A stretch of 11,238 nucleotides of DNA from Thermoproteota archaeon (GTDB lineage Archaea > Korarchaeota > Korarchaeia > B14-G2): the NCBI GenBank assembly GCA_037917675.1, contig JAVCBW010000047.1, forward strand, positions 1 to 11,238. The letters are read 5' to 3'. Positions 1 to 11,238 of this stretch are shown piece after piece (the stretch's first letter is position 1; each line of letters begins with the position of its first letter). The position numbers and the translations under genes are program-made. The notes under the pieces are model-generated. The model searched no databases. It was given only the letters and a program-made list of their open reading frames with translations, and was not told where the DNA came from.

Positions 1-594
1 CATCACGTGCTCTATCCAGAACACAGTGATCCCCAGCTCCTTCCTTATTCTCCTTATCAACTCCATTGCCTCTATAGTTTCCGTGGGATTTAAGCCTGCT
101 ATCACTTCATCAAGAAGCACTACTTCAGGCCCTGTAGCTAGAGCTGTAGCTACTTCAAGCATTTTCCTCTCAACTAGGGTTAGACTCCTAGCTAGCATAT
201 CTCTCTTCTCTGACAGCCCCACGAACTCAAGGTAGTATTTTGCCTCCTTCTTAGCTTCCTGGACGCTGATGGAGCTTTTACCCCCGAATAAGACGCCACA
301 TACAACGTTGTCTAAAGCTGACATATCTAGGAATGGACGTACTATCTGGAAGGTTCTTGCTATCCCGAGCTTACAGATTTCATGTGGGCTAAGCCCAGTT
401 ATATCTCTACCCTTGAACAATACTTTACCAGACTCAGGTCTGTAAACGCCTGTAATAACGTTAAAGAGAGTGGTCTTACCTGCTCCATTTGGCCCTATTA
501 ACCCGACTATCTCGTCTCTTCTGACCTCAAAATCTACATCCCTCAGCGCAGCTAGCCCTCCGAAGTATTTGGTCAGCTTTATCCCCTCTAGCAT
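1..594 (-). CDS. livG: HAAT/branched-chain amino acid ABC transporter ATP-binding subunit, LivG-type (3' end runs off the window)
   Basis: Not in the ORF track; hand translation from ATG 594: MLEGIKLTKYFGGLAALRDVDF..., Walker A GPNGAGKTT, Q-loop IARTFQIVRPF, Walker B/D-loop VLLDEVIAGLN, H-loop FWIEHVM at the window edge. Open for 198 codons; SD-like AGGAGGGTG at 610-602. Confidence 0.95.
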   Translation of the reverse strand, partial: MLEGIKLTKYFGGLAALRDVDFEVRRDEIVGLIGPNGAGKTTLFNVITGVYRPESGKVLFKGRDITGLSPHEICKLGIARTFQIVRPFLDMSALDNVVCGVLFGGKSSISVQEAKKEAKYYLEFVGLSEKRDMLARSLTLVERKMLEVATALATGPEVVLLDEVIAGLNPTETIEAMELIRRIRKELGITVFWIEHVM

Positions 595-656
595 CTATAT
601 ACACCCTCCTTGTAAGGCTCCTAGGTAGAGATAGTTTAGTGCCTGAGTGGGTATCG

Positions 657-664
657 TTTATAAA
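657..664. promoter_or_regulatory. Palindromic TATA box TTTATAAA between divergent livG and livH
   Basis: Exact match to the archaeal TATA consensus, self-complementary, 26 nt upstream of ATG 691; the best TATA candidate in the 96-nt intergenic gap. Confidence 0.65.
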
Positions 665-690
665 TGCATCTACTTAAGCCTGGAGATAAC

Positions 691-1566
691 ATGGTTCCAT
701 GGGATTATATTGTGAGACAGCTGTTCTATGGGCTTGTATCTGGGTGCATGTATGCCTTGATGGCAGCTGGACTCTCTTTGATATTCGGTGTGATGAAGAT
801 GTTGAACTTTGCACATGGAGAGTTCTATATGATAGGGGGTTATGTCATCTACTTTCTGGTTGTTAAATTCGGAGTAGACCCTATGCTGTCAATTTTCTCT
901 GCTTTGATAGCTGCCTTCCTGACAGGCATGCTAATTGAGAGAGTATTCTTAAGGCCTCTGTTTGGGAGGCCTGCCTGGGATCTAAGCGCTCTCACGGTCA
1001 CGATAGGGCTATCGATATTCCTCCAGAACTTCGCCTTAGTCTTTTGGGGAGAGAAGTATAAGAGAATTCCAGAGTATATTGCTGGGACAGTCAGCATATA
1101 TGGTATACCTATTAGCCTACAGAGGGTGCTCGTTGTAGTTGGCTCGCTTTGTCTGATAGCTGTACTATGGGGAGTACTCCATAGGACCATGTTTGGGAAA
1201 GCTATAAGGGCTGTTGCACAGGATCCTGATGCAGCTTCCTTGATGGGGATAAATCCGAGGAAGATATTTATGCTGACATATGCGATAAGCTGCATGCTTG
1301 CTGCATTCGCGGGAGCATTGCTCTCTCCTATATTCATGGTCTATCCTACGATGGGGGCATCTCCATTTCTTAAGGGGTTCTGTGTAGCGATATTCGGTGG
1401 GCTTGGGAGCTTCGAGGGAGCTGTATTAGGTGGTATGTTGCTTGGGTTAGCTGAGGTAGCAGGGATAGCCTTATTTGGTGCTGAGTGGAGGGATGTCATC
1501 GCTTTCACCTTGCTTATACTTACACTAGTTTTCAAGCCATCTGGGTTGCTTGGGCGTGGTGAGTAG
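691..1566 (+). CDS. livH: HAAT ABC transporter permease, LivH-type
   Basis: Motifs YALMAAGLSLIFGVMKMLNFAHGEF, GKAIRAVAQDPDAASLMGIN, FGGLGS, KPSGLLG; multiple hydrophobic helices. Start placed at ATG 691 (GGAGA at 682-686) because the ORF-track ATG 664 overlaps the TATA box. Confidence 0.93.
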   Translation: MVPWDYIVRQLFYGLVSGCMYALMAAGLSLIFGVMKMLNFAHGEFYMIGGYVIYFLVVKFGVDPMLSIFSALIAAFLTGMLIERVFLRPLFGRPAWDLSALTVTIGLSIFLQNFALVFWGEKYKRIPEYIAGTVSIYGIPISLQRVLVVVGSLCLIAVLWGVLHRTMFGKAIRAVAQDPDAASLMGINPRKIFMLTYAISCMLAAFAGALLSPIFMVYPTMGASPFLKGFCVAIFGGLGSFEGAVLGGMLLGLAEVAGIALFGAEWRDVIAFTLLILTLVFKPSGLLGRGE

Positions 1567-1567
1567 T

Positions 1568-2563
1568 ATGAGCATCTATGGTGGTGTCTCTAAGCTTAAG
1601 TCTGCTGTCAGAGAGTACCCGAGAGCAATCCTGCTGTTATTTGCATTGTATCTCATACCTCTGTTCATCAGAAGCCCCTACATACTGCACCTCATGGTGT
1701 TAGGCTACATATATGCGATCTTGACTACTAGCTGGGATCTCGTATGTGGGTATACAGGGATATTCAGCTTTGCTCACGCTGCATTCTGTGGCATCGGAGC
1801 ATACACGTCATCACTCCTCTCCATGAGAATGGGAATAAACCCTTGGCTAACAATTTTAGTTGGGAGCTTAACTTCAACAGGCATAGGATTTCTCATAGCT
1901 CTCCCATGTCTTAGGCTGAGAGGGCCGTATATAGTGATTGTGACTCTAGCCTTCAGTGAGATAGCTAGGATAACATGCTCGAACCTAGTGGATATAACAA
2001 GGGGAGAGCTTGGCTTATGGGGGATCCCTCCTCTTCTGCAGGTTAGTGGGCGTAGAGAATACTACTATCTCATAGCTCTAAGCTTCTTTGCAGCCACATT
2101 ACTGTCTCTATATGCTTTAATAAGATCGAAGATGGGGTATGCTCTCTCAGCTATAGGGCAGGATGAGCTTAAGGCTAGGAGCATAGGGATAAATGTCACA
2201 GAGTATAAGCTGCTTGCATTCTCTATTAGTGCCTTCTTCGCAGGGCTAGCTGGAGGGCTTTATGCCCATTATGTGCTCCTCCTGGTACCAAGTGCCATAT
2301 TGAGCTTAGGGCTCATGGTTGAAATCATGACGATGAGCCTTATAGGAGGTTTAAAGTCTCTTGTAGGACCAGCTATAGGATCTTTTCTCCTCGTCTTTAT
2401 CTCAGAGTACCTGAGAGCTATAGGGCCATATAGGTTCTTGATATATGGCTTACTCATCATGGTTATCGTTATTTGGGCTCCTAGTGGCATGGTGCTGGCG
2501 GTAAGGAAGGTAGGTGACCTGATTGGGCTGACTAAGCCCATAGTGTGGAAGGGTCAAAAATAG
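1568..2563 (+). CDS. livM: HAAT ABC transporter permease, LivM-type
   Basis: Motifs GYTGIFSFAHAAFCGIGAY, LRLRGPYIVIVTLAFSE, DELKARSIGIN, AGLAGGLYAHY, IGGLKSLVGP. Start placed at ATG 1568, 1 nt after the livH stop and preceded by GGTGA (1558-1562), rather than TTG 1550. Confidence 0.93.
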   Translation: MSIYGGVSKLKSAVREYPRAILLLFALYLIPLFIRSPYILHLMVLGYIYAILTTSWDLVCGYTGIFSFAHAAFCGIGAYTSSLLSMRMGINPWLTILVGSLTSTGIGFLIALPCLRLRGPYIVIVTLAFSEIARITCSNLVDITRGELGLWGIPPLLQVSGRREYYYLIALSFFAATLLSLYALIRSKMGYALSAIGQDELKARSIGINVTEYKLLAFSISAFFAGLAGGLYAHYVLLLVPSAILSLGLMVEIMTMSLIGGLKSLVGPAIGSFLLVFISEYLRAIGPYRFLIYGLLIMVIVIWAPSGMVLAVRKVGDLIGLTKPIVWKGQK

Positions 2564-2575
2564 TGGGAGGAAGAG
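2556..2575 (-). terminator. Possible archaeal pyrimidine/oligo-T terminator for the binding-protein gene
   Basis: On the minus strand CTCTTCCTCCCACTATTTTT directly follows the stop at 2576; the T5 run overlaps the livM 3' end. Weak signal. Confidence 0.3.
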
Positions 2576-3856
2576 CTAAAGCCAGGGGGGTACTTTCCAT
2601 TCAGCTTGCTTACACCATTCAGGCCATACTACTACGTTCTTTCCACCCACTATCTGATACATTAGCTGGGGCATGTACTCTGGACCTGGGAGCACTTCAT
2701 GGTTGTCTTTACCGAACACAAACTTCCCTAGCGGGCCTACATACTCCATGGTTAGCAGGGTTTCAGCTATTTTATCCTTATCTAGAGTCCCAGCTTTCTC
2801 TATAGCTTCGAATAGCATCATTAGAGGAGCATACCCATATGCAGCGTCTGCTGTAGCCTTTTCTCCAGGCCACCTTTTCTCGTAGTCTCTTATGAACTGC
2901 TCTGATGGAGGGTGGCCTGGGATCAGCGCCATTGAAGAGCACCAGGTCACGTACTCAGCTGCTTCTCCACACTGGGGTATGTACTCTGCCTTAACTGGAT
3001 AGTAGTTCCCATAGAAAACTGCTTTAACCTTAGCTTCCTTAAACTGCTTTGTTAGAGCTACACCTGATGCTAGAGATGTCAGTATGGACCAGACCATATC
3101 AGGTTTCTTCTCTGCTATGTCAGCAAGAACCGGGTAGAAGTCGGTCTCCCCAACGGGTACTACGTGCTTAGCTACGACTTTGAACCCTATCTTCTCGAAT
3201 TCCTTAGCTACAGCTTCACTAACAGTCCTACCATAGTCTGTATCCTCTAGGATCAGAGCTATCGTCTTTGTCTTAGGCTTAAACAGGCCCTTTTCTATTA
3301 TGTACTTTGTGAAGGAGGCGAAGGCTATCCCATAAGCTGATCCATTGACGTCGCATTTGAAGAAGTACTTGTACTTCTCTGGGTTCTCAAGCACCTTCTT
3401 TGATATAGCTGAGCTGACTGGCTGCATGCTTATCGCGAGGATCCCGTATTTCGCGTAGACTTCCATTGCAGCCAAGGTTACTGAGGAGTGTAGGTGTCCA
3501 CATATGAAGTCTACTTTCTCCTTTGTAATGAGCATCTCAGCTACGCTGACTCCGACCTCAGGCTTTGACTGAGTGTCTGCGAACACGAGCTCGACTTTCA
3601 GCCTCCTTCCGAGCTCCTTTACATAGATCCCGCCCTTCTCATTTACTTGCTCCATGGCGAGTATAGCTCCTCTCTTCATGGCTAAGCCTGTCTCGGCAGC
3701 TGGACCTGTCAGTGGAAGTGGTACACCTATCTTTATAACCTCCTTCGGTGGGGGACGTGTAGTTAACCAGGCATAGTAGCCGCCTACAGCCACTACTATA
3801 ATGACTATTACAGCGAGGACTACAGCTTGCACCTTCGTCAAAGCTCTCCTAGACAT
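2576..3856 (-). CDS. HAAT ABC transporter substrate-binding protein (LivJ/LivK-like type I fold), membrane-anchored
   Basis: IKIGVPLPLTGPAAETG, ADTQSKPE, GHLHSS, EDTDYGR, GETDFYPVL, AIEKAGTLD are typical of the family; N-terminal hydrophobic anchor followed by a PPP linker. Start is ATG 3856 (MSRRA...) or upstream at 3871/3877; the ligand is unknown. Confidence 0.9.
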   Translation of the reverse strand: MSRRALTKVQAVVLAVIVIIVVAVGGYYAWLTTRPPPKEVIKIGVPLPLTGPAAETGLAMKRGAILAMEQVNEKGGIYVKELGRRLKVELVFADTQSKPEVGVSVAEMLITKEKVDFICGHLHSSVTLAAMEVYAKYGILAISMQPVSSAISKKVLENPEKYKYFFKCDVNGSAYGIAFASFTKYIIEKGLFKPKTKTIALILEDTDYGRTVSEAVAKEFEKIGFKVVAKHVVPVGETDFYPVLADIAEKKPDMVWSILTSLASGVALTKQFKEAKVKAVFYGNYYPVKAEYIPQCGEAAEYVTWCSSMALIPGHPPSEQFIRDYEKRWPGEKATADAAYGYAPLMMLFEAIEKAGTLDKDKIAETLLTMEYVGPLGKFVFGKDNHEVLPGPEYMPQLMYQIVGGKNVVVWPEWCKQAEWKVPPWL

Positions 3857-3898
3857 TTTTATCCATCTCATATGCATCCTGTGTCTCCACCAGTACTT

Positions 3899-3908
3899 GC
3901 TTTTTAAG
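3899..3908 (-). promoter_or_regulatory. TATA-like box CTTAAAAAGC upstream of the binding-protein gene
   Basis: AT-rich box in the intergenic gap, 21 nt upstream of ATG 3877; the identical 10-mer precedes the aminotransferase (6320-6329). Confidence 0.5.
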
Positions 3909-3954
3909 CCTTACCTTGGGAGCCCTTATTTACCTGTGCCTGTTGAGAAGCTCT

Positions 3955-5226
3955 TTACACAGGAATTACTTCGAGTATGTTTGCTATGGATGTAGCTAGC
4001 ACTTTAGTGTAGAGTATGAGGTCTTGTATGCTCACGTACTCATCAGTAGTGTGTGCTAGCGCAGGGAGGCCAGGGCCATACACTACGCACTCTGAAAGAT
4101 TGAGTTTGCTCAATACGAATTTCATATCGCATGTGGCTGGGAGCAGGAATAATTCAGGCTTCATTCCTGTCAAGCTCCTTATTTTAGAGCATATGACTCT
4201 AGCTAGCTTTGAGTCTGGTGATGTATGCAGTGGGGGGACAGACATGACCTCTACGACCTCGCAGTCGACTCCAGCTTCCCTTTTAGCTGATTCTAGGGCC
4301 TCCATGAACTCTCTTCTGACATCACTCAAATCTTCTTCAGGTATCACACGTCTATCCAGGGATGCGATGCATAGGTCTGGTATTATGTTTCGTGCATAGC
4401 CTCCACTTATCATGTTTACAGAGATTGATGGGGTTCTACACTCCTCTGGAAGTATGGGCCAGGTTGACCTCCTGCTCTCGACTTTCGGCTTTAACCTATT
4501 GAGCACCCTAGTTAGTATATATAGCATTTTTTCGACAGCATTCTCTCCTAAGTGCGGCTGGGCACCATGTGACTTTATGCCTCTTGTAATTAGCTCCCAC
4601 CAGATGACTCCTCTATGCCCTATACAAACTCTTCCTACAGATGATACATCTGCTATTATGCAGTAATCACCAAACTTCCTCTTTTTGAAGTAGTTCTCTA
4701 TGAGATAACCAAGCCCAGCGAATCCGCCAGTCTCCTCATCTACTGTGAGGGTCTGTATTATAGTGCCTTTTAACGCTGCTCCGCTGCCTCTAATAGCTTC
4801 TATGGCATATATCTGAGCTGCAATGCCAGCTTTCATATCGCTAGCTCCTCTCCCATAGATTCTACCATCCTCCTCTATGGCTCCGAATGGAGGCTTACTC
4901 CAGCCTGATCCGGCTGGAACAACGTCAAAGTGTCCATTTAAGTGTAGAGCTCTCTCGCTGCCTCTAAGCTGGGCTACTACATTGACTCTGGGCAGTGATT
5001 CTCCATGTGGAGCAAGCTTTTCAGCTAGGGAAGCCGGCACCTCAACTAGCTCGACTTCGTAGTCTAGCTTCTCTAGCATATCAGCAAGTAGCTCTGCACA
5101 CTTCCTGTAGTTTCTGCCTGGCGGGTTCTCGGTAGGTATTCTGATCAGATCCTTTGTAAGCTCTATTATCTTACTCTTCAGCCTGTCTACTTCCTCTATT
5201 ATATTCTCCTCAGCTTTTGTGAGCAT
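3955..5226 (-). CDS. M20 family metallo-amidohydrolase, ArgE/DapE-like; substrate unknown
   Basis: LNGHFDVVP (H99), YGRGASDMK (D130), VDEETGG (E164/E165), SHGAQPHLGENA, LAHTTDEYV (H392). Starts 11 nt after the transcarbamylase stop, so probably co-transcribed. Confidence 0.92.
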   Translation of the reverse strand: MLTKAEENIIEEVDRLKSKIIELTKDLIRIPTENPPGRNYRKCAELLADMLEKLDYEVELVEVPASLAEKLAPHGESLPRVNVVAQLRGSERALHLNGHFDVVPAGSGWSKPPFGAIEEDGRIYGRGASDMKAGIAAQIYAIEAIRGSGAALKGTIIQTLTVDEETGGFAGLGYLIENYFKKRKFGDYCIIADVSSVGRVCIGHRGVIWWELITRGIKSHGAQPHLGENAVEKMLYILTRVLNRLKPKVESRRSTWPILPEECRTPSISVNMISGGYARNIIPDLCIASLDRRVIPEEDLSDVRREFMEALESAKREAGVDCEVVEVMSVPPLHTSPDSKLARVICSKIRSLTGMKPELFLLPATCDMKFVLSKLNLSECVVYGPGLPALAHTTDEYVSIQDLILYTKVLATSIANILEVIPV

Positions 5227-5237
5227 GACCAGACCTG

Positions 5238-6176
5238 CTATGGTACTACCAGCGCTAGAACCGCTTTCTCAGTATGCATTCTGTTCTCAGCTTGATCCCA
5301 GACTACTGAGTGGGGGCCTTCTATGATGTCATCAGTTATTTCCTCGCCTCTATAGCATGGGAGACAGTGCATGAATATGAAGTCTTCTTTAGCAAACTTT
5401 ACTACCTCAGAGTTTATCTGATATGGGGCGAAGTCTCTTATCCTCTTCTCCTTTTCCCTCTCAGGCCCACCCATGCTATGCCATGTGTTGGCGTATATCA
5501 CGTCAGCTCCCTTTAAGGCTTCTTCTAGGTCTTCTGTTATCACTACCTCAGCTCCACTCCTCTTAGCTTGATCTTCTGCAAACTCCATTATCCTCTTATC
5601 AGGGTCATATCCCTTTGGTCTAGCAACGTAGATGTTTATCCCAAACATGCTTGATGCTACGATTAGGCTGTGACAGACATTCCATATGTCTCCAGCGTAA
5701 GCGAGTTTTATGCCCCTTAACCTCCCCTTCTTCTCTCTTATTGTGAGCAGGTCTGCTAGAGCCTGACATGGATGTGTCAGGTCTGTTAGAGCATTTATCA
5801 CAGGGCCCTTCATGTATCTAGCGTACTCCTCTACCCTCTCCTGCTCAAATGTTCTTATCACGAGCGCATCGCAGTATCTGTCTATTACCCTAGCAGTGTC
5901 CTTGATAGGCTCTCCTCTAGCAAGCTGCATCTCATCAGGCCTCATGTAGAAGCTTTGGGCTCCGAGGTGGGCTATTGCAGCCTGGAAGGACGTTCTAGTC
6001 CTGGTTGAAGGCTTCTCGAATATCATGGCGATAGTCCTCCCCTTCAGGTATTCGTGAGGAGTTCTACTAGCCCATAGCCTCTTAAACTCACTTGAGACAT
6101 CAAGCATATACTCTACTTCCTCTCTAGTATAGTCCATGAGAGTTAGGAAATCTCTACCTCTGAACTTCCATCTCAA
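5238..6176 (-). CDS. Ornithine carbamoyltransferase-family transcarbamylase with a variant acceptor site
   Basis: Carbamoyl-phosphate motifs FEKPSTRTR, HPCQALAD, MHCLP and QAENR are intact; the SMG loop reads YANTWHSMG. Start placed at TTG 6176 (GAGGGTG at 6188-6182), giving 312 aa. Pipelines would call it argF; the symbol is withheld because of the Asp-to-Asn change. Confidence 0.9.
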   Translation of the reverse strand: MRWKFRGRDFLTLMDYTREEVEYMLDVSSEFKRLWASRTPHEYLKGRTIAMIFEKPSTRTRTSFQAAIAHLGAQSFYMRPDEMQLARGEPIKDTARVIDRYCDALVIRTFEQERVEEYARYMKGPVINALTDLTHPCQALADLLTIREKKGRLRGIKLAYAGDIWNVCHSLIVASSMFGINIYVARPKGYDPDKRIMEFAEDQAKRSGAEVVITEDLEEALKGADVIYANTWHSMGGPEREKEKRIRDFAPYQINSEVVKFAKEDFIFMHCLPCYRGEEITDDIIEGPHSVVWDQAENRMHTEKAVLALVVP

Positions 6177-6206
6177 GCTGCCACCCTCACATCTGAGAAG
6201 AATGCC

Positions 6207-6215
6207 TATTAAAAA
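6207..6215 (-). promoter_or_regulatory. TATA-like box TTTTTAATA for the transcarbamylase-M20 unit
   Basis: AT-rich box 30 nt upstream of TTG 6176 in the divergent intergenic region; lies inside the ORF-track N-terminal extension, which argues against the 6227 start. Confidence 0.45.
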
Positions 6216-6319
6216 GATATCCCTCATCCTTCTGAAGAACCCGTCTCTTAGCCGGCTTTTCTCGCTCTAGCCGTTTTAGCTTCCACTAGCACTTACAGTG
6301 AGCCATTAAGCTAGTTACT

Positions 6320-6329
6320 CTTAAAAAGC
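6320..6329 (+). promoter_or_regulatory. TATA-like box CTTAAAAAGC upstream of the aminotransferase
   Basis: 27 nt upstream of ATG 6357; identical to the box at 3908-3899 on the minus strand. Confidence 0.5.
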
Positions 6330-6356
6330 TAGATGTCTTGAGGGAGCTGTGGGAGC

Positions 6357-7726
6357 ATGGAGTTTTCAGATATGCATTTCTCTGAAGCTCCTCTGATAAA
6401 GGTCGACCCTCCTGGGCCAAGAGCTAGGGAGCTTATTGAGATGCAGCTGAAGCTTGAAAGCAATGCTGTCCTTTACCCTAGGAAGGTTCCCCTAGTAATT
6501 GATGAAGCTAAGGGAGCAACAATCAGGGATGTAGATGGGAACATCTACATAGATTTCTTTAGTGGGATTTCAGTGCTCAACTTCGGGCATTCAAATCCTG
6601 TTATAGTTGAGGCAGCTAGAAGGCAGCTAGAGAAGCTAGCTCACGCATTAGACTTCCCAACTGAGCCTAGACTAGAGCTTACAAAGCTCCTTAGAGATAT
6701 AGCTCCATTAGGCCTTAAGGGTAGATGTAAGGTCTTATATGGTGGGCCGACAGGATCAGATGCTATTGAAGCAGCTGTTAAGCTTGCTAAGTATAACACA
6801 AGGAAGCATGGGCTACTAGCCTTTGAGGGCTCCTATCATGGCCAGACAGCAGCAGCTCTCTCACTAACAAGCAGCAGAAGCTTCAAGGACAAGTACATAC
6901 CTATGCTACCTGAAGTCCACTTCTCACCTTATGCTTATTGCTATAGATGCCCACTAGGCTTAAGCTATCCTGAGTGTAGCATACAATGTGTCCGCTACCT
7001 GGAGAAGAGGCTGAAAGACCCATACTCAGGGCTACCTGATTTAGCTGCGATCATCGTAGAGCCTGTGCAAGGTGAAGGAGGGGTAATAGTCCCACCAGAC
7101 GAGTTCCTGAAGGAGGTGAGGAGGATAGCAAGCGAGCACTCAATCCCCTTAGTTATTGACGAGATACAAGCAGGTCTCTGCCGCACTGGAAAGATATTTG
7201 CATGTGAGCACTATGAAACTACGCCAGATGTAATGACATTAGCAAAGTCTCTCGGGGGTGGGATGCCGCTAGCAGCTTGCCTCTATAGAGAAGACTTAGA
7301 TACATGGGAGCCAGGAAGCCATCTTGGGACGTTCAGAGGACATGCAGTAGCTATGGCAGCAGGGGTAGCTGCTATGAAGTTCATGTTAGACTATAAGCTG
7401 TGGGAGCATACAGCTTCTCTAGGAGAGTTAGCTATCAAGAGACTAGAGGAAGTGGCTAGTGAGAGCGAGGTAGTAGGTGATGTTAGAGGAAAGGGGCTTA
7501 TGCTAGCGTTAGAGCTTGTAAAGGACACGAGGACAAAGGAACCTTGGCCTGATGGGGTGAAGAGAGTCCAGAGAGAGTGCTTTAGAAGGGGAGTCATAGT
7601 CTGGACAGCAGGACACTATGGAAATGTAGTGAGGCTGCTTCCACCACTCGTGATAACGAGGATCTCTTAGAAAAGGGGCTAGACATCCTTTCAGAAGTCA
7701 TCAGGTCGGTGGAGCATGAGATCTAA
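6357..7726 (+). CDS. Class III PLP aminotransferase, diaminobutyrate-2-oxoglutarate transaminase (Dat/EctB)-like; frameshifted near the 3' end
   Basis: DVDGNIYIDFFSG, GPTGSDAIEAAVKLAK, FEGSYHGQT, EPVQGEGG, DEIQAGLCRTG, PLP lysine in TLAKSLGGG (K297), WEPGSHLGTFRGH. As given, the frame stops at 7670; the expected terminal helix EDLLEKGLDILSEVIRSVEHEI continues in the -1 frame from 7658 to TAA 7724-7726. Confidence 0.88.
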
Positions 7727-7848
7727 TAGCTACATGCGTCAGATTCTAATCTGCTGAGCAGGATAGCCTATTCCAGCAGGTAGAAGTTGGGAGCTGTAGC
7801 CAGCCCTCTACTAGCTTAGCTATCCTCTGCCTCCCATAGACTTCTCCT

Positions 7849-10800
7849 CTAGAATGACTCCTCCCTGTCAGCAACCGTTGATTTGCTGTCAACTGTATAT
7901 GATGGCTTGATGCAGCTGCTACAGAGCCTCCAGTACTCTCTCAGCTCAGCTACCTTGAGGCTGCTAGGGTACTTCAGGGCTTCAGCTATGGCCTTAGCCT
8001 GCTCTAGGGTTGTTATGACCGGGATCCCGAGCTCAGCTGCCCTCCTGCGTATCTCCCTGCTATCCTCTAGCATCTGAGAGTACTTCTCAAGTGTAGTGCT
8101 CCATGGTATGTTTATTACGAGAGCTATGCTGTCTCTAGCTATGAGGTCAGCTATGTTAGGATGCCTGCTTGGCTCACTGACCTTATAGGCTGTCTCAGCT
8201 GGGATCCCAGCTGCCTTGAAGGCTAGCGTGGTGTGTTCTGTTGACAGTATCTTGAAGCCATGCTCATGTAGTGCTCTAGCTATAGGCAGTATCTTGGACT
8301 TAAGCTCTACTCCACCTACTGTGATCAGCACAGAGCTGCCCTTGAGGTCTATGCCTGATGCCTTGAGAGCCTTCACATAAGCCTCATGCATAGACTCACC
8401 TAGGCAGCATACCTCTCCAGTGCTCATCATCTCAACTCCTAGCATGGGGTCTATGCCAGGTAGCTGCCTGAAGCTGAACTGAGGCGCCTTAACCGCGTAG
8501 TAACGCATCTCTGGTGGCCCTCTGACCCCAGTGAACCCTAAGCTCTCGCCTAAGATCGTGTCTACAGCTAGCTTCACGAGGTTAACTCCAGTTGCCTTAC
8601 TGACATACGGCATTGACCTGCTGGCTCTGAGATTGCACTCTATCACGTAGACCTCGTCTTTGACTAGGAACTGTATGTTTAGGGGGCCTTTAGCACCTAG
8701 TGCTCTCGCTATCTGTAGGGTGTACTCTCTCATCTTGCTCACAGCCCACTCTGGTAGAGAGTATGGTGGGATGGCCATCGTTGAGTCACCGCTGTGGACT
8801 CCAGCGTTCTCTATGTGTTCTATGACAGCTCCAATGTAGGCTGAGTAGCCATCTGAGACAGCATCGACCTCAGCTTCTCTTGCTCCCATGATGAACCTAG
8901 ATACAACTACAGGATGCTCTTCAGAGACTTCAGCAGCCTGCTTCAGGTACCTCTTGAGCTCGCTTCTGCTGTAAGCGACCCGCATAGCCTGCCCACTCAA
9001 GACGTAGCTTGGCCTCACTATCACAGGATACCTGCCTTCAGCAAACTCCAGAGCTTCTCCTATGCTTGAAGCTGAAGCCCACTCTGGCTGAGGGATGCCA
9101 AGCGAGTCTAGCAGGCTACTGAACTTCTCTCTGTCTTCTGCCATGTCTATGCTCTCAGCACTTGAGCCGATCAGCCTGACACCAGCCTCATGGAGGGGGA
9201 CTGCAAGGTTGTTTGCAGTCTGCCCTCCAAATGACACCACAACTCCCTCTGGGCTCTCAGCCTCATATATGTCGAGTACACGCTCGAGGGTAAGCTCTTC
9301 GAAATAGAGCTTATCGCTCACGTCATAGTCTGTTGAAACAGTCTCAGGGTTACAGTTCACGACTATGGCCTCAAAGCCACGAGCTCTAAGCTCCCTGACA
9401 GCATTGACACAGCACCAGTCAAACTCTACTGAGCTGCCAACCCTATAGCAGCCGCTCCCGAGCACAACTACCTTCCTACGCCTGCTTTCCTCTATGTCGC
9501 TCTCCACGCCTCCATACGTCACGTAGAGGTAGTTTGTCTGAGCAGGCCACTCTGCAGCTAGGGTATCAATCTGCTTGACACAAGGCCTGACATCAAGCTT
9601 CTTCCTCAGCCTCCTGACCTCATCCTCTGATAGGCCAGTGCACATGGCTATCTGCCTATCTGAGAAGCCGAGCCTCTTAGCTTCCCTTAGCAGAGCTGGC
9701 TTCAACCCCTCCTTCCTGAGCTTCTCCTCTAGCCTAACTATGTTCTCCACCTTACTGATGTAGAACCTGTCTATCTTAGATGCCTCAGCTACCTCACTCA
9801 CACTAGCTCCAAGCTTTAGTGCCTCAGCTATCTCAAGGACCCTATTGTCCTTAGGGGTCCTCAGGGACTCGAGGACCTCAGCTAGAGGCCTACCTGAAAG
9901 CTTTACACAGGCTACACCAGGGTATCCCTTGTCAAGCATCCTGAAGGCCTTCTGTAAGGCTTCCTCAAAGCACCTTCCAATAGCCATGACCTCGCCTATG
10001 CTCTTCATTCCAGTACCAAGCTCCCTTGCTGCCCCAGGGAACTTCTCAAAATCCCATCTCGGCACCTTAACCACTATGTAGTCTAGTGCAGGCTCGAATG
10101 CCGCCGTGGTAACACAAGTAACCTTGTTCTTAAGCTCAGGGAGCAGGTAGCCTATAGCTAGCTTGGCAGCTACATAGGCTAGAGGGTAGCCTGTAGCCTT
10201 GCTTGCTAGAGCTGAGCTCCTCGACATCCTAGCATTAACCTCTATCACACGGTACTCCTCCCCTTCAGGGTGTAGTGCAAACTGCACGTTGCACTCTCCG
10301 ATGACACCTACAGCCTCAGCTACACGCAAGCTAGCTTGCCTGAGCATGTGGTACTCTCTGTCAGTCAGTGTCTGAGATGGAGCTACCACTATGCTGTCTC
10401 CAGTGTGTACGCCCATGGGGTCAACATTCTCCATGTTACATACTGTGATGCAGTTCCCAGCATAGTCTCTTACCACCTCATACTCGATCTCCTTCCAGCC
10501 TCCAAGGTACTCCTCAACCTGAACTGAGTCAGACTTAGCTAGAGCTCTCCTAGCAACCTCCCTGAGCTCTCCCTTAGACCAAGCGACTCCGCTTCCACCA
10601 CCACCAAGCATGAACTGAGCCTTGACTACGACAGGGTAGCCTAAGCTATCTGCAGCCTCAAGGGCGTCTTCGACTGTGAAGGCCTTCCTAGACCTTGGGA
10701 CAGGGATGTTGGCGTCCTCCATCGCCCTCCTGAAGAGCTCCCTATCCTCGGTCTTCTCTATAGCCTCCACTGGGCTGCCTAGGACCACGACGCCGTTCTC

Positions 10801-11127
10801 CTCTAGCACACCAGACCTAGCTAAGGCTACTCCACAGTTGAGTGCTGTCTGGCCTCCGAAGCCTAGCAGTATGCCCTGAGGCCTCTCTCTCCTAATGACC
10901 TCAGCGACATACTCTGGTGTGACTGGAGCCAGGTAGATTTTGTCAGCCATGGTAGGGTCAGTCTGTATTGTAGCTATGTTCGGGTTCACAAGCACGGTTT
11001 CAATGCCCTCCTCTGAGAGAGCTTTGAGAGCCTGGCTACCACTATAGTCGAACTCCCCAGCTTCACCTATCTTTATGCCGCCACTTCCTAGCACTAGAGC
11101 TTTGCTTAGCCAGCTGAACTTAGGCAC
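7849..11127 (-). CDS. carB: Carbamoyl-phosphate synthase large subunit
   Basis: LVLGSGGIKIGEAGEFDYSGSQA, ENVDPMGVHTGDS, IEVNARMSRSSALASKATGYP, IDTLAAEWPA, NCNPETVSTDYD, RPSYVLSG, AGVHSGDS, IECNLRASRS, and a C-terminal MGS-like domain. Start placed at GTG 11127 (AGGAGG at 11140-11135), giving 1092 aa. Confidence 0.97.
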   Translation of the reverse strand: MPKFSWLSKALVLGSGGIKIGEAGEFDYSGSQALKALSEEGIETVLVNPNIATIQTDPTMADKIYLAPVTPEYVAEVIRRERPQGILLGFGGQTALNCGVALARSGVLEENGVVVLGSPVEAIEKTEDRELFRRAMEDANIPVPRSRKAFTVEDALEAADSLGYPVVVKAQFMLGGGGSGVAWSKGELREVARRALAKSDSVQVEEYLGGWKEIEYEVVRDYAGNCITVCNMENVDPMGVHTGDSIVVAPSQTLTDREYHMLRQASLRVAEAVGVIGECNVQFALHPEGEEYRVIEVNARMSRSSALASKATGYPLAYVAAKLAIGYLLPELKNKVTCVTTAAFEPALDYIVVKVPRWDFEKFPGAARELGTGMKSIGEVMAIGRCFEEALQKAFRMLDKGYPGVACVKLSGRPLAEVLESLRTPKDNRVLEIAEALKLGASVSEVAEASKIDRFYISKVENIVRLEEKLRKEGLKPALLREAKRLGFSDRQIAMCTGLSEDEVRRLRKKLDVRPCVKQIDTLAAEWPAQTNYLYVTYGGVESDIEESRRRKVVVLGSGCYRVGSSVEFDWCCVNAVRELRARGFEAIVVNCNPETVSTDYDVSDKLYFEELTLERVLDIYEAESPEGVVVSFGGQTANNLAVPLHEAGVRLIGSSAESIDMAEDREKFSSLLDSLGIPQPEWASASSIGEALEFAEGRYPVIVRPSYVLSGQAMRVAYSRSELKRYLKQAAEVSEEHPVVVSRFIMGAREAEVDAVSDGYSAYIGAVIEHIENAGVHSGDSTMAIPPYSLPEWAVSKMREYTLQIARALGAKGPLNIQFLVKDEVYVIECNLRASRSMPYVSKATGVNLVKLAVDTILGESLGFTGVRGPPEMRYYAVKAPQFSFRQLPGIDPMLGVEMMSTGEVCCLGESMHEAYVKALKASGIDLKGSSVLITVGGVELKSKILPIARALHEHGFKILSTEHTTLAFKAAGIPAETAYKVSEPSRHPNIADLIARDSIALVINIPWSTTLEKYSQMLEDSREIRRRAAELGIPVITTLEQAKAIAEALKYPSSLKVAELREYWRLCSSCIKPSYTVDSKSTVADREESF

Positions 11128-11238
11128 ATAAGACCCTCCTCGTGAACATGTCGAACACGAAGCTGCAGTCAAGTGGGCCAGGAGAAGCCTCAGGGTGGAA
11201 CTGCACCCCAAGAGCCCTCCCCTCAAGCCCCCAAAGCC
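11120..11238 (-). CDS. carA: Carbamoyl-phosphate synthase small (glutaminase) subunit, 3' end only
   Basis: Not in the ORF track; the frame from 11236 reads LWGLEGRALGVQFHPEASPGPLDCSFVFDMFTRRVLCA* (TAA 11122-11120). QFHPEASPGPxD is the CarA catalytic His-x-Glu motif; overlaps the carB start by 8 nt. Confidence 0.93.
   Translation of the reverse strand, partial: LWGLEGRALGVQFHPEASPGPLDCSFVFDMFTRRVLCA

What the first reader, a model, noticed from the sequence alone, without database searches (positions are those of the whole stretch)
1..7726. Candidate uncharacterised diaminobutyrate / ureido- or N-acyl-amino acid pathway resembling an arginine cluster
Seen: a dedicated HAAT importer, an M20 amidohydrolase, a transcarbamylase and a class III aminotransferase cluster beside carAB, and each of the three enzymes departs from ArgE/ArgF/ArgD diagnostics. 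Known: arginine biosynthesis operons do not need an importer; transcarbamylase plus M20 pairs occur in non-arginine pathways (YgeW/YgeY; N-acetylornithine transcarbamylase with an acetylcitrulline deacetylase); Dat/EctB enzymes interconvert aspartate semialdehyde and 2,4-diaminobutyrate (DABA). Inference, catabolic model: import of an N-acyl and/or N-carbamoyl diamino acid, phosphorolysis to carbamoyl phosphate, deacylation, then transamination of DABA to aspartate semialdehyde. Inference, anabolic model: CarAB-fed carbamoylation of DABA or an N-acyl derivative. Direction cannot be determined here; no carbamate kinase is in the window.
Basis: partly seen in the sequence, partly recalled or inferred. 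Interest (0 to 1): 0.78.

Follow-up and report, generated by a model that had tools for sequence, protein, structure and literature searches.

The report
Accessory catabolic carbamoyltransferase island beside carAB
A strain-variable block of genes (an amino-acid importer, a deacylase, an unusual ornithine-carbamoyltransferase relative and an aminotransferase) has been inserted into an archaeon's arginine-synthesis locus and most likely breaks down a citrulline-like compound for energy rather than making arginine.

Summary
The genes are there, but the window holds only the tail of carA and one of the two transporter ATPases. The block at 1-7726 is an insertion. In the sister genome carB is followed directly by a GNAT-like gene, argG and argH. 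The genome has its own vertically inherited OTC, a LysW cluster with lysJ and lysK, and a carbamate kinase elsewhere.

The window's transcarbamylase belongs to one well-supported clade marked by ANTWHSMG, GD(I/L/V)WNV and HCLPGY. In 72 loci of this clade, none lies within 6 kb of arginine-synthesis genes. Within that distance, 21 have an arginine-deiminase-superfamily gene, 16 carbamate kinase, 14 a class III aminotransferase and 13 HAAT transporter genes. All five genomes checked also carry a canonical OTC.

My reading is a catabolic module: import, phosphorolysis to carbamoyl phosphate, and transamination of the released amine. Citrulline is the likeliest substrate, but the Asp-to-Asn change leaves another ureido compound possible.

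The diaminobutyrate idea fails the published motif tests. The M20 link is unique to this window. The aminotransferase carries a frameshift near its 3' end.

The parts
1..594 (-). LivG-like ABC ATPase of the HAAT importer. Its 3' end continues into contig C47. No LivF partner follows.
   Evidence: PF00005 and LivG NF008449 hits. 77-bp exact overlap with C47, where the frame stops near C47:200.
664..1566 (+). HAAT permease, LivH/UrtB-like
   Evidence: PF02653, 150 bits. UrtB and LivH models score below their cut-offs.
1550..2563 (+). HAAT permease, LivM/UrtC-like
   Evidence: PF02653, 166 bits.
2576..3877 (-). Membrane-anchored HAAT substrate-binding protein; ligand unknown
   Evidence: PF13458, 212 bits. 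Nearest solved chains are amino-acid and urea binders at E 1e-25 or weaker. 27-37% identity to binding proteins beside the same OTC clade elsewhere.
3955..5226 (-). M20 ArgE/DapE-family deacylase. It starts 11 bp after the OTC stop, so it is probably co-transcribed.
   Evidence: TIGR01910 315.5 above 217.6. ArgE, DapE, LysK and YgeY models all score below cut-off. Nearest of 5.8 billion proteins are only 45-48% identical.
5238..6227 (-). N-type ornithine-carbamoyltransferase-family enzyme (ANTWHSMG, GDIWNV, HCLPCY). The database copy of this protein is 312 aa, so the start is probably about 17 codons inside the ORF.
6228..6356 (.). Intergenic region between the divergently oriented OTC and aminotransferase genes
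   Evidence: ORF coordinates. No promoter test was run.
6357..7670 (+). Class III aminotransferase, nearest to the archaeal ornithine omega-aminotransferase/racemase group; frame broken near 7657
   Evidence: PF00202, 338 bits. Best solved chain 7vno, 305 bits. Frameshift seen.
7658..7726 (+). Displaced last 22 codons and stop of the aminotransferase, in another frame
   Evidence: The three-frame translation matches the C-termini of homologues. No indel against independent contigs of runs X1 and X2.
7849..11226 (-). carB, a flanking core gene rather than part of the island. The true start is probably near 11125.
   Evidence: TIGR01369, 1461 bits. 88% DNA identity to the sister genome.
11132..11238 (-). 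3' tail of carA; the rest is at the end of contig C51
   Evidence: TIGR01368 positions 331-359 match here and positions 2-324 match at C51:93164-94141.

Best explanation
Window 1-7726 is an accessory, horizontally acquired gene block. It is inserted between carAB and a GNAT-like gene, argG and argH in an archaeon of the phylum Thermoproteota.

Its core is an 'N-type' member of the ornithine carbamoyltransferase family. I propose that this enzyme works in the catabolic direction. The proposed steps are:
1. The HAAT system imports a ureido amino acid. Citrulline is most likely (my odds about 2 in 3 within this model).
2. The N-type enzyme phosphorolyses it to carbamoyl phosphate plus the amine, ornithine.
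3. The genome's unlinked carbamate kinase (C22) turns carbamoyl phosphate into ATP, or it is used for pyrimidines or arginine.
4. The class III aminotransferase converts ornithine to glutamate semialdehyde.
5. The co-transcribed M20 enzyme probably frees the substrate from an N-acyl or peptide-bound form.

Shown:
- gene content
- the insertion
- the clade and its motifs
- the clade's neighbourhoods in other genomes
- a second, vertically inherited OTC, the LysW cluster and a carbamate kinase in the same genome.

Inferred: the direction of the reaction, the substrate, and the roles of the M20 enzyme, the aminotransferase and the transporter.
For: Insertion:
- The sister genome G001 has carB, two small ORFs, the GNAT-like gene, argG and argH on one strand.
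- Window 1-7880 has no counterpart in G001, only 59-498-bp matches at 64-85% identity to other ABC-transporter genes. carB is 88% identical at the DNA level.
- The C13-C47 overlap is an exact 77 bp.

The genome does not need this block to make arginine:
- OTC2 on C56 (TDTWFSMG; TIGR00658 343 bits against 281) sits between ftsY- and ftsZ-like genes (recognised from the translations, not scanned). It is 83% identical in the same synteny in G001.
- OTC2 groups with the class's other D-type OTCs.
- The LysW cluster with lysJ and lysK is on C39.

The clade:
- 109 of the 120 best homologues carry YANTWHSMG.
- The 67 N-type rows form one clade with SH-aLRT 100 (quick tree).
- The window's copy sits among Bathyarchaeia and deltaproteobacterial sequences (75% identity), not with its own class's N-type copies (57-59%).

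Neighbourhoods:
- Among 72 N-type loci with at least 6 kb of flank (one is a duplicate), counts within 6 kb are: ArgG, ArgH, CarB or LysX/Y/Z/K 0; ADI-superfamily 21; carbamate kinase 16; class III aminotransferase 14; HAAT binding protein or permease 13; M20 4.
- 33 of the 72 have at least one of a deiminase, carbamate kinase or an ArcE-like gene.
- As a control, the same queries found arg genes beside D-type OTCs in L086, L088 and L090-L092.
- In 9 loci from one genus of the same class, arcC is adjacent in 9 and a five-gene HAAT system in 8.
- Bathyarchaeia loci place the gene with an ECF transporter, an ADI-family gene and a class III aminotransferase.

Other points:
- 5 of 5 N-type genomes examined also have a canonical OTC (GDGNNV, HCLPAH).
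- The own genome has carbamate kinase (TIGR00746, 377 bits against 358).
- It also has a candidate arginine synthetase (ArcE-like) at C54:1985-3334. This is 61% identical to a gene next to an N-type OTC in L066, with a weak match to cyclic-diphosphoglycerate synthetase. PMC11032458 (sections 6 and 15 read) describes such weak similarity for ArcE.
- The aminotransferase's best solved relative is 7vno. I recall this entry as P. horikoshii PH1423. PMC9986279 (passages) lists PH1423 as an ornithine delta-aminotransferase.
Against: - In this genome the block lies between carAB and argGH. OTC, M20, the binding protein and LivG are on the same strand as those genes.
- The enzyme passes the OTC equivalog model.
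- No deiminase is in the window, and no PF02274 gene was found in the 92.7%-complete genome. Carbamate kinase is on another contig, and it is also present in relatives that lack the N-type gene.
- The effect of the Asp-to-Asn change is unknown. That Asp binds ornithine directly (PMC4581275), so ornithine and citrulline may not be the true pair.
- The M20 partner is unexplained and is not conserved.
- There is no LivF in cis, and the aminotransferase is frameshifted.
- The aminotransferases and HAAT genes beside N-type OTCs elsewhere are only 27-43% identical to the window's (LivG up to 57%). That is no closer than the window's own paralogues, so the linkage is at family level only.
- The loci were found with peptide patterns that included YANTWHSM. 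Many are close kin (9 from one genus, about 20 Thermoleophilia or Actinomycetes).
- The careful tree did not finish, so the quick tree was used.
Confidence: 0.55

Rival explanations
1. The architecture is the same catabolic one, but the N-type enzyme does not act on citrulline. Loss of the Asp that binds ornithine's alpha-amino group, together with Asn166 to Trp and His to Tyr after HCLP, would retune the pocket. It would then fit a ureido compound without a free alpha-amino group, or one with a modified group. Candidates are 5-ureidovalerate, 4-ureidobutyrate, N-alpha-acyl-citrulline and homocitrulline. The reader's ureido-diaminobutyrate is the least likely member of this set.
For: - The Asp-to-Asn change and the accompanying changes are conserved across archaeal and bacterial phyla.
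- A canonical OTC coexists in 5 of 5 genomes checked.
- The linked deiminase-superfamily genes are non-canonical: 287-aa DDAH-like and 451-aa forms that score far below the arcA cut-off.
- The M20 deacylase starts 11 bp after the OTC.
- PH1423-type aminotransferases also accept 5-aminovalerate and GABA weakly (PMC9986279 table).
- There is precedent for specificity switching at this Asp in DBTCase and DPTCase (PMC4581275).
Against: - Lys53, Asn167, Ser-Met-Gly and HCLP are all kept, and the OTC equivalog score is high.
- The DBTCase marks (Thr/Ser for the Asp, HDLP) are absent.
- There is no chemistry data.
- M20 linkage is rare (4 of 72).
Confidence: 0.22
2. The block is anabolic or a salvage route. 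It imports ornithine or an N-acyl-ornithine, the M20 enzyme deacylates it, and the extra OTC uses CarAB's carbamoyl phosphate to make citrulline for the adjacent ArgG and ArgH.
For: - Position and strand between carAB and argGH.
- TIGR00658, 412 bits.
- The M20 belongs to the ArgE/DapE family.
Against: - 0 of 72 N-type loci elsewhere lie near arg genes.
- The sister genome keeps carB and argGH without the block.
- The genome already has OTC2 and the LysW route.
- The clade is linked to carbamate kinase and deiminases.
Confidence: 0.13
3. The block is a decaying remnant in this population and has no current function.
For: - The aminotransferase is frameshifted. The frameshift is reproduced in contigs of runs X1 and X2, which may be the source sample.
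- No LivF is present.
- Contigs covering 48-7306 have depths of 105-147, against 356-412 for the flanks, in X1. The tool warns that contig depth is no share of cells.
Against: - The other six genes have full-length open frames with end-to-end family matches.
- The frameshift removes only the last 22 residues.
- LivF paralogues exist elsewhere in the genome.
Confidence: 0.1

Closest known systems
Catabolic OTC (ArcB) with carbamate kinase, in the arginine deiminase pathway and in the arginine synthetase pathway (ArcE-OTC-CK; Michimori et al. 2024, PMC11032458; abstract and sections 6, 8, 15 read)
   Same: An OTC-family enzyme linked in other genomes to deiminase-superfamily genes, carbamate kinase and transporters. 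The own genome has carbamate kinase and an ArcE-like candidate.
   Different: Every D-type OTC in my set keeps DxxxSMG. That the characterised ArcB enzymes do so is recalled, not tested. This clade has Asn there, plus Trp and Tyr changes. The window holds no deiminase or carbamate kinase, and it uses a HAAT ABC importer rather than an ArcD-type antiporter (antiporter not searched for).
Pyrococcus furiosus OTC (PDB 1a1s, 1pvv)
   Same: Best solved relative (365 bits), with end-to-end alignment. STRTR, HPxQ, HCLP and SMG are shared.
   Different: GDGNNV becomes GDIWNV, TDVWASMG becomes ANTWHSMG, and HCLPAH becomes HCLPCY. There is one extra residue after SMG.
L-2,4-diaminobutyrate and L-2,3-diaminopropionate transcarbamylases (review PMC4581275, passages)
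   Same: They belong to the OTC branch, and the conserved Asp of DxxxSMG is replaced.
   Different: Those enzymes have TRWQSMG or (T/S)RWQTTG and HDLP, and they sit in antibiotic biosynthesis clusters. Here the motifs are ANTWHSMG and HCLP.
N-acetylornithine transcarbamylase with acetylcitrulline deacetylase (recalled from Xanthomonas; mentioned in PMC11032458 and PMC4581275)
   Same: A transcarbamylase next to an M20 deacylase.
   Different: The AOTCase model NF003384 scores 191.5 against a cut-off of 288. AOTCases belong to the knotted group per the review. The M20 pairing is not conserved here.
Archaeal ornithine omega/delta-aminotransferases TK2101 and PH1423 (PMC9986279 table; PMC11032458)
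   Same: The window's aminotransferase scores best against the P. horikoshii chain 7vno. These enzymes remove ornithine made from citrulline.
   Different: That 7vno is PH1423 is recalled, not shown by a call. Racemases of the same group score almost as well (285 bits). The window gene is frameshifted.
Putrescine transcarbamylase of the agmatine deiminase pathway (PMC3282769, listing; PMC4581275, passages)
   Same: A catabolic OTC-branch enzyme that feeds carbamate kinase.
   Different: PTCase lacks SMG, has Gln in FxQxSxRT and has a C-terminal extension. Here SMG and Lys are present, and TIGR04384 scores 299 against 500.

Membership tests
Ornithine carbamoyltransferase (EC 2.1.3.3) | Carbamoyl-phosphate motifs STRTR and HPxQ, and HCLP | tested here: met
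   FEKPSTRTR, HPCQ and HCLPCYRGEE in the translation.
Ornithine carbamoyltransferase (EC 2.1.3.3) | DxxxSMG, whose Asp (Asp231 in E. coli) binds ornithine | tested here: not met
   The motif reads ANTWHSMG; Ser-Met-Gly is kept and the Asp is Asn. The role of the motif is from PMC4581275 and PMC8517447.
Ornithine carbamoyltransferase (EC 2.1.3.3) | Asn167 and the Lys of FxKxSxRT | tested here: met
   GDIWNV aligns to GDGNNV of 1a1s with the second Asn kept, and FEKPSTRT keeps the Lys. The mapping of Asn167 onto the second Asn rests on recalled E. coli numbering.
Ornithine carbamoyltransferase (EC 2.1.3.3) | Score above the curated equivalog cut-off | tested here: met
   TIGR00658 412.1 against 280.85.
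Ornithine carbamoyltransferase (EC 2.1.3.3) | Activity on ornithine and citrulline | not testable with these tools
   Needs an enzyme assay.
Diaminobutyrate/diaminopropionate transcarbamylase | TRWQSMG or (T/S)RWQTTG in place of DxxxSMG, and HDLP | tested here: not met
   ANTWHSMG and HCLP; the criteria are from PMC4581275.
Putrescine transcarbamylase | No SMG, with a (Y/W)(G/W)(V/L/I)x loop; Gln in FxQxSxRT; model TIGR04384 | tested here: not met
   SMG and Lys are present; 298.7 bits against 500.
N-acetylornithine transcarbamylase / YgeW (knotted group) | Curated model scores | tested here: not met
   NF003384 191.5 against 288; YgeW 97 against 453.
ArgE, DapE, LysK or YgeY (specific M20 enzymes) | Equivalog model scores | tested here: not met
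   TIGR01892 155 against 298; PRK13009 175 against 284; LysK NF003367 91 against 363; YgeY 140 against 321. Only the family model TIGR01910 passes (315.5 against 217.6).
Diaminobutyrate-2-oxoglutarate transaminase (Dat/EctB) | Curated model scores | tested here: not met
   PRK06938 452 against 671; TIGR00709 352.5 against 401.6; TIGR02407 305.6 against 552.2. The DABA transaminase structure 6rl5 scores 228 bits against 305 for 7vno.
ADI / arginine synthetase pathway | A deiminase (ArcA) or ArcE, plus an OTC, plus carbamate kinase in the genome | tested here: inconclusive
   Carbamate kinase is present. No PF02274 gene was found at 92.7% completeness. The ArcE-like candidate at C54:1985-3334 rests on weak similarity only. 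None of these is linked to the window.
HAAT (LivJHMGF-type) ABC importer | A binding protein, two permeases and two ATPases in one locus | tested here: not met
   The binding protein, two permeases and LivG are present. No LivF follows LivG on C47.

The most novel reading that the evidence does not exclude
The N-type clade (Asn for the ornithine-binding Asp, Trp for Asn166, Tyr after HCLP) would be a new transcarbamylase specificity, currently annotated everywhere as OTC. It would phosphorolyse a ureido acid other than citrulline, for example 5-ureidovalerate, 4-ureidobutyrate or an N-alpha-modified citrulline. Non-canonical deiminase-superfamily enzymes would make that substrate. The result would be an unrecognised ATP-yielding guanidino- or ureido-acid fermentation, spread across Bathyarchaeia, other Thermoproteota, Chloroflexota, Bacillota and Actinomycetota.
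Probability: 0.22. Interest if true: 0.8.

Novelty: new variant of a known kind. Interest (0 to 1): 0.5.

Why it matters
Automated annotation names every member of this clade 'ornithine carbamoyltransferase', and metabolic reconstructions then read it as arginine synthesis. The neighbourhood data say it is a separate, probably energy-yielding catabolic enzyme. It occurs in many uncultured anaerobes from sediments and the subsurface.

If the Asn variant also changes the substrate, it would add a member to a small, well-studied enzyme family and a new route for substrate-level phosphorylation. For this genome, it shows that lying next to carAB and argGH can be an accident of insertion.

Tried and rejected
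- **M20 in metagenome contigs:** the 80 kept loci were only 39-43% identical. None had an OTC, and 15 had a distant class III aminotransferase, so they say nothing about this M20's partners.
- **M20 in the class:** 2 of 39 other genomes had a match, both at 35% identity.
- **Composition:** the block is 46.8% G+C against 49.7% for the genome, the 18th percentile of windows. That is too weak to argue for transfer on its own.
- **Repeats:** no direct or inverted repeats mark the block's ends, and I saw no integrase or tRNA. No tRNA scan was run.
- **ArcE-like protein:** NCBIfam gave no family for it.
- **G001's two small ORFs between carB and the GNAT-like gene:** no family found.
- **Closest aminotransferase relatives:** they are 63% and 52% identical, in G051 and G053, and sit in unrelated contexts.
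- **Binding-protein relatives in ten genomes carrying the closest N-type OTCs:** at most 37% identical.
- **RNA:** no RNA holder was listed for the window, so there is no information on expression.
- **Tree:** treekit's careful search did not finish in the time allowed, so I report the quick tree (SH-aLRT only). I dropped five rows beforehand: L069_13151, L094_18332, L094_17201, L078_10161 and L120_1. They were a non-OTC ORF, distant paralogues or fragments.
- **Literature on the Asn variant:** I did not find it described. The only search on this was 'DxxxSMG'/'transcarbamylase', plus passages of two reviews. That is thin ground for 'not in print'.
- **Supplements:** the supplements of PMC11032458 (Table S1, Fig. 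S2B, on arcE/arcB/arcC neighbourhoods) were closed and may bear on the clade's known context.
- **Not run:** structure prediction, complex prediction, the atlas search and the representative-protein search. None would decide the substrate.

Full report
**What is in the window.** The window is a whole 11,238-bp contig (C13) of a 1.78-Mb, 62-contig archaeal genome that is 92.7% complete. ORF listing and Pfam/NCBIfam scans give:
- a LivG-like ATPase at 1-594 (-), running off the end
- two HAAT permeases at 664-1566 and 1550-2563 (+)
- a membrane-anchored HAAT binding protein at 2576-3877 (-)
- an M20 ArgE/DapE-family deacylase at 3955-5226 (-)
- an OTC-family gene at 5238-6227 (-)
- a class III aminotransferase at 6357-7670 (+)
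- carB at 7849-11226 (-).

Only the last ~30 codons of carA are present (11132-11218). The rest of carA ends contig C51.

The reverse complement of the window's first 77 bases is identical to the start of contig C47. There the ATPase frame ends after about 65 more codons. It is followed by a GNAT-like ORF, argG and argH, not by a LivF gene.

**The block is an insertion.** The only other species of the genus in the collection is G001 (91% complete). Its contig has carB, ORFs of 133 and 276 aa with no family hit, the GNAT-like gene (87% identity), argG (91%) and argH (81%), all on one strand.
- At the DNA level, G001 matches window 7881-11163 at 88%. It has no counterpart of 1-7880; the only matches there are 59-498-bp stretches at 64-85% identity to other ABC-transporter genes.
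- This confirms the C13-C47 join. It also shows that the seven genes from LivG to the aminotransferase are accessory.
- The block's G+C (46.8%) is lower than that of carB (52.6%) and argGH (53.1%), but it is unremarkable for the genome.
- I laid independent contigs of two runs that hold the window; both may be its source. The pieces covering 48-7306 have depths of 105-147 in X1 (62-104 in X2). The pieces covering carB and the C47 side have 356-412 (233-275 in X2). The contigs break at 48-77, 4755-4763 and 7277-7306.
- The tool warns that contig depth is not a share of cells. I take this only as a hint that the block is strain-variable.

**The genome's arginine genes lie elsewhere.** Three OTCace genes exist.
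- C23 is pyrB followed by a pyrI-like ORF. I named these by eye from the translations; they were not scanned.
- C56 ('OTC2') reads TDTWFSMG and passes TIGR00658 (343 bits against 281). It lies between ftsY- and ftsZ-like genes, which I recognised from the translations. It is 83% identical in the same synteny in G001.
- In the tree, OTC2 groups with the D-type OTCs of the other members of the class. It is therefore the vertically inherited OTC.
- C39 carries lysX, lysY, lysZ, lysW, lysX, lysJ and lysK.
- A true carbamate kinase is at C22:13884-14855 (TIGR00746, 377 bits against 358). It lies about 6-12 kb from a paralogous HAAT system and a paralogous class III aminotransferase (44% identity).

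**The transcarbamylase clade.** The window enzyme keeps FEKPSTRTR, HPCQ, HCLP and Ser-Met-Gly. Three sites differ from canonical OTCs:

| Site | Canonical OTC | Window enzyme |
|---|---|---|
| DxxxSMG loop | TDVWASMG | ANTWHSMG |
| Asn166-Asn167 region | GDGNNV | GDIWNV |
| After HCLP | HCLPAH | HCLPCY |

- The comparison is an alignment to P. furiosus OTC, the best solved relative at 365 bits.
- According to Shi et al. 2015 (PMC4581275, passages) and PMC8517447, OTC binds ornithine through Asp231, Ser235, Met236, Asn167 and Lys53. Only the Asp is lost here.
- 109 of the 120 best homologues among 5.8 billion proteins carry YANTWHSMG. All 120 are 70-78% identical to the query.
- In a quick maximum-likelihood tree of 103 OTC-family rows, the 67 N-type rows form one clade (SH-aLRT 100) nested in the OTC branch.
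- The window's copy sits with Bathyarchaeia and deltaproteobacterial sequences (75%). Its own class's N-type copies are only 57-59% identical. Together with its absence from G001, this points to horizontal acquisition.

**What the clade keeps company with.** I scored 72 N-type loci that had at least 6 kb of flank. L144 duplicates L031, so 71 are distinct. Counts within 6 kb of the gene:

| Neighbour within 6 kb | Loci (of 72) |
|---|---|
| ArgG, ArgH, CarB, LysX, LysY, LysZ or LysK | 0 |
| Arginine-deiminase-superfamily gene | 21 |
| Carbamate kinase | 16 |
| Class III aminotransferase | 14 |
| HAAT binding protein or permease | 13 |
| M20 | 4 |
| At least one of deiminase, carbamate kinase, ArcE-like | 33 |

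- The deiminase-superfamily genes are PF02274, in 287-aa DDAH-like and 451-aa forms.
- As a control, the same queries did find arg genes beside D-type OTCs in L086, L088 and L090-L092.
- In nine loci from one genus of the window's class, arcC follows the N-type gene in all nine. A five-gene HAAT system is divergently adjacent in eight.
- Three Bathyarchaeia-like loci (L020-L022; L022's record is titled only 'archaeon') share one ORF order. In L021, where I scanned it, the operon is: saccharopine-dehydrogenase-like, N-type OTC, ADP-forming acyl-CoA synthetase, ECF transporter, SDR, ADI-family gene, class III aminotransferase.
- All five further N-type genomes examined also encode a canonical OTC (GDGNNV, HCLPAH).
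- Caveats:
  - The loci were retrieved with peptide patterns that included the motif itself.
  - Many loci are close kin.
  - The neighbouring aminotransferases and HAAT genes are only 27-43% identical to the window's (LivG up to 57%), so the linkage holds for families, not orthologues.

**The other two enzymes.**
- The aminotransferase is below every NCBIfam cut-off. It scores best against the P. horikoshii chain 7vno (305 bits), then an alanine/serine racemase (285) and GABA transaminases (275 and lower). A DABA transaminase scores 228.
- I recall 7vno as PH1423. PMC9986279 lists PH1423 and TK2101 as ornithine omega/delta-aminotransferases.
- The aminotransferase frame breaks near 7657. The last 22 codons, which match homologues' C-termini, lie in another frame and end at 7726. 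The independent contigs show no indel there.
- The M20 gene starts 11 bp after the OTC stop, so the two are probably co-transcribed. Yet its nearest relatives anywhere are only 45-48% identical, and none in its class exceeds 35%. Of 80 metagenomic relatives (39-43% identity), none is beside an OTC. Its role is the weakest part of any model.

**Mechanism proposed.** The best fit is a catabolic module:
1. A ureido amino acid is imported.
2. The N-type enzyme phosphorolyses it to carbamoyl phosphate and an amine.
3. The unlinked carbamate kinase makes ATP from the carbamoyl phosphate.
4. The amine is transaminated.

Citrulline and ornithine are the simplest substrate pair, for three reasons:
- Four of the five ornithine-binding residues are kept.
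- The OTC model score is high.
- The partners (deiminase-superfamily genes, carbamate kinase, an ornithine-aminotransferase-like enzyme) are those of the ADI and arginine synthetase pathways (PMC11032458).

The genome lacks a PF02274 gene. It does have an ArcE-like candidate at C54:1985-3334, supported only by 61% identity to a gene beside an N-type OTC and a weak match to cyclic-diphosphoglycerate synthetase.

A substrate other than citrulline remains a live possibility (about 0.22), for these reasons:
- The clade-wide loss of the Asp that binds ornithine's alpha-amino group.
- The Trp and Tyr changes that accompany it.
- Coexistence with a canonical OTC.
- The non-canonical deiminase partners.

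The published diaminobutyrate enzymes are not the model, because their marks (TRWQSMG, HDLP) are absent. The anabolic reading rests mainly on adjacency to carAB and argGH, which the insertion explains.

**Verdict.**
- It is wrong or unsupported on diaminobutyrate and on a conserved M20 partnership.
- The broader result is an unrecognised, widely distributed OTC subfamily with catabolic neighbourhoods. I rate it a new variant of a known kind and of moderate interest until the substrate is measured.

Noticed in passing
window 7640-7726: The class III aminotransferase has a one-base frame break near 7657. RIS-stop replaces the last 22 residues, which are encoded intact in another frame and end at 7726. 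Independent contigs of runs X1 and X2 show no indel here.
   Followed up: partly
window 1-11238 (runs X1, X2): Contigs covering 48-7306 have about a third of the depth of those covering carB and the argG side. Contigs break at 48-77, 4755-4763 (inside the M20 gene) and 7277-7306 (inside the aminotransferase). This suggests strain variants that share the 3' ends of LivG and the aminotransferase but differ in between.
   Followed up: partly
G000:C56:5391-6344 (L016) and class relatives L121-L129, L139: The vertically inherited OTC of this class reads HCQPWFLGQE instead of HCLPAHRGEE (10 of 11 rows) and GDG(S/A/G)ANT instead of GDGNNV. This is a lineage-specific departure in the core enzyme.
   Followed up: partly
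G000:C54:1171-3334 (L264): A 449-aa P-loop protein with weak similarity to cyclic 2,3-diphosphoglycerate synthetase is a candidate arginine synthetase (ArcE). It overlaps a nitrilase-superfamily gene by 8 bp.
   Followed up: partly
G000:C22:2144-14855 (L015): A paralogous cluster holds a complete HAAT system, a class III aminotransferase (44% identical to the window's), an epimerase, a PLP-dependent decarboxylase, a RidA-like protein, a large amidohydrolase and carbamate kinase. G001 has a carbamate kinase gene and a LivG-like DNA match on one contig (C24); the rest of the cluster was not checked there.
   Followed up: partly
C47:366-1067 (L013) and L138:2782-3486: A GNAT-like ORF (weak PF00583 hit, no NCBIfam family) lies directly upstream of argG and overlaps it. 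It is 87% conserved in the sister genome and may be a short N-acetyltransferase tied to arginine synthesis.
   Followed up: no
L079, L081, L083, L084, L087: Thermodesulfobacteriota-type loci pair a D-type OTC with a second transcarbamylase of the aspartate branch (about 46% identical to the genome's PyrB). Carbamate kinase is present in four of the five; L079 is a short contig without it. This is a different two-transcarbamylase catabolic cluster.
   Followed up: no
L119 (G028), L120 (G027): Class relatives carry an OTC-branch gene with TDLWWW(V/I)GQE in place of the SMG loop. This resembles the published putrescine transcarbamylase loop motif.
   Followed up: no
L059-L074, L085, L089 and other Thermoleophilia/Actinomycetes loci: In these lineages the N-type gene reads GNTWHSMA. 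It sits with a PucR-type regulator, a cyclase/arylformamidase-like gene, a metallophosphoesterase-like gene and a nitrilase-superfamily amidase. This context differs from the archaeal one.
   Followed up: no
window 594-2576; L267: The permease pair is on the opposite strand to the binding protein and ATPase genes. A Bathyarchaeia locus (L267) shows a similar divergent HAAT layout, but with both ATPases present.
   Followed up: no
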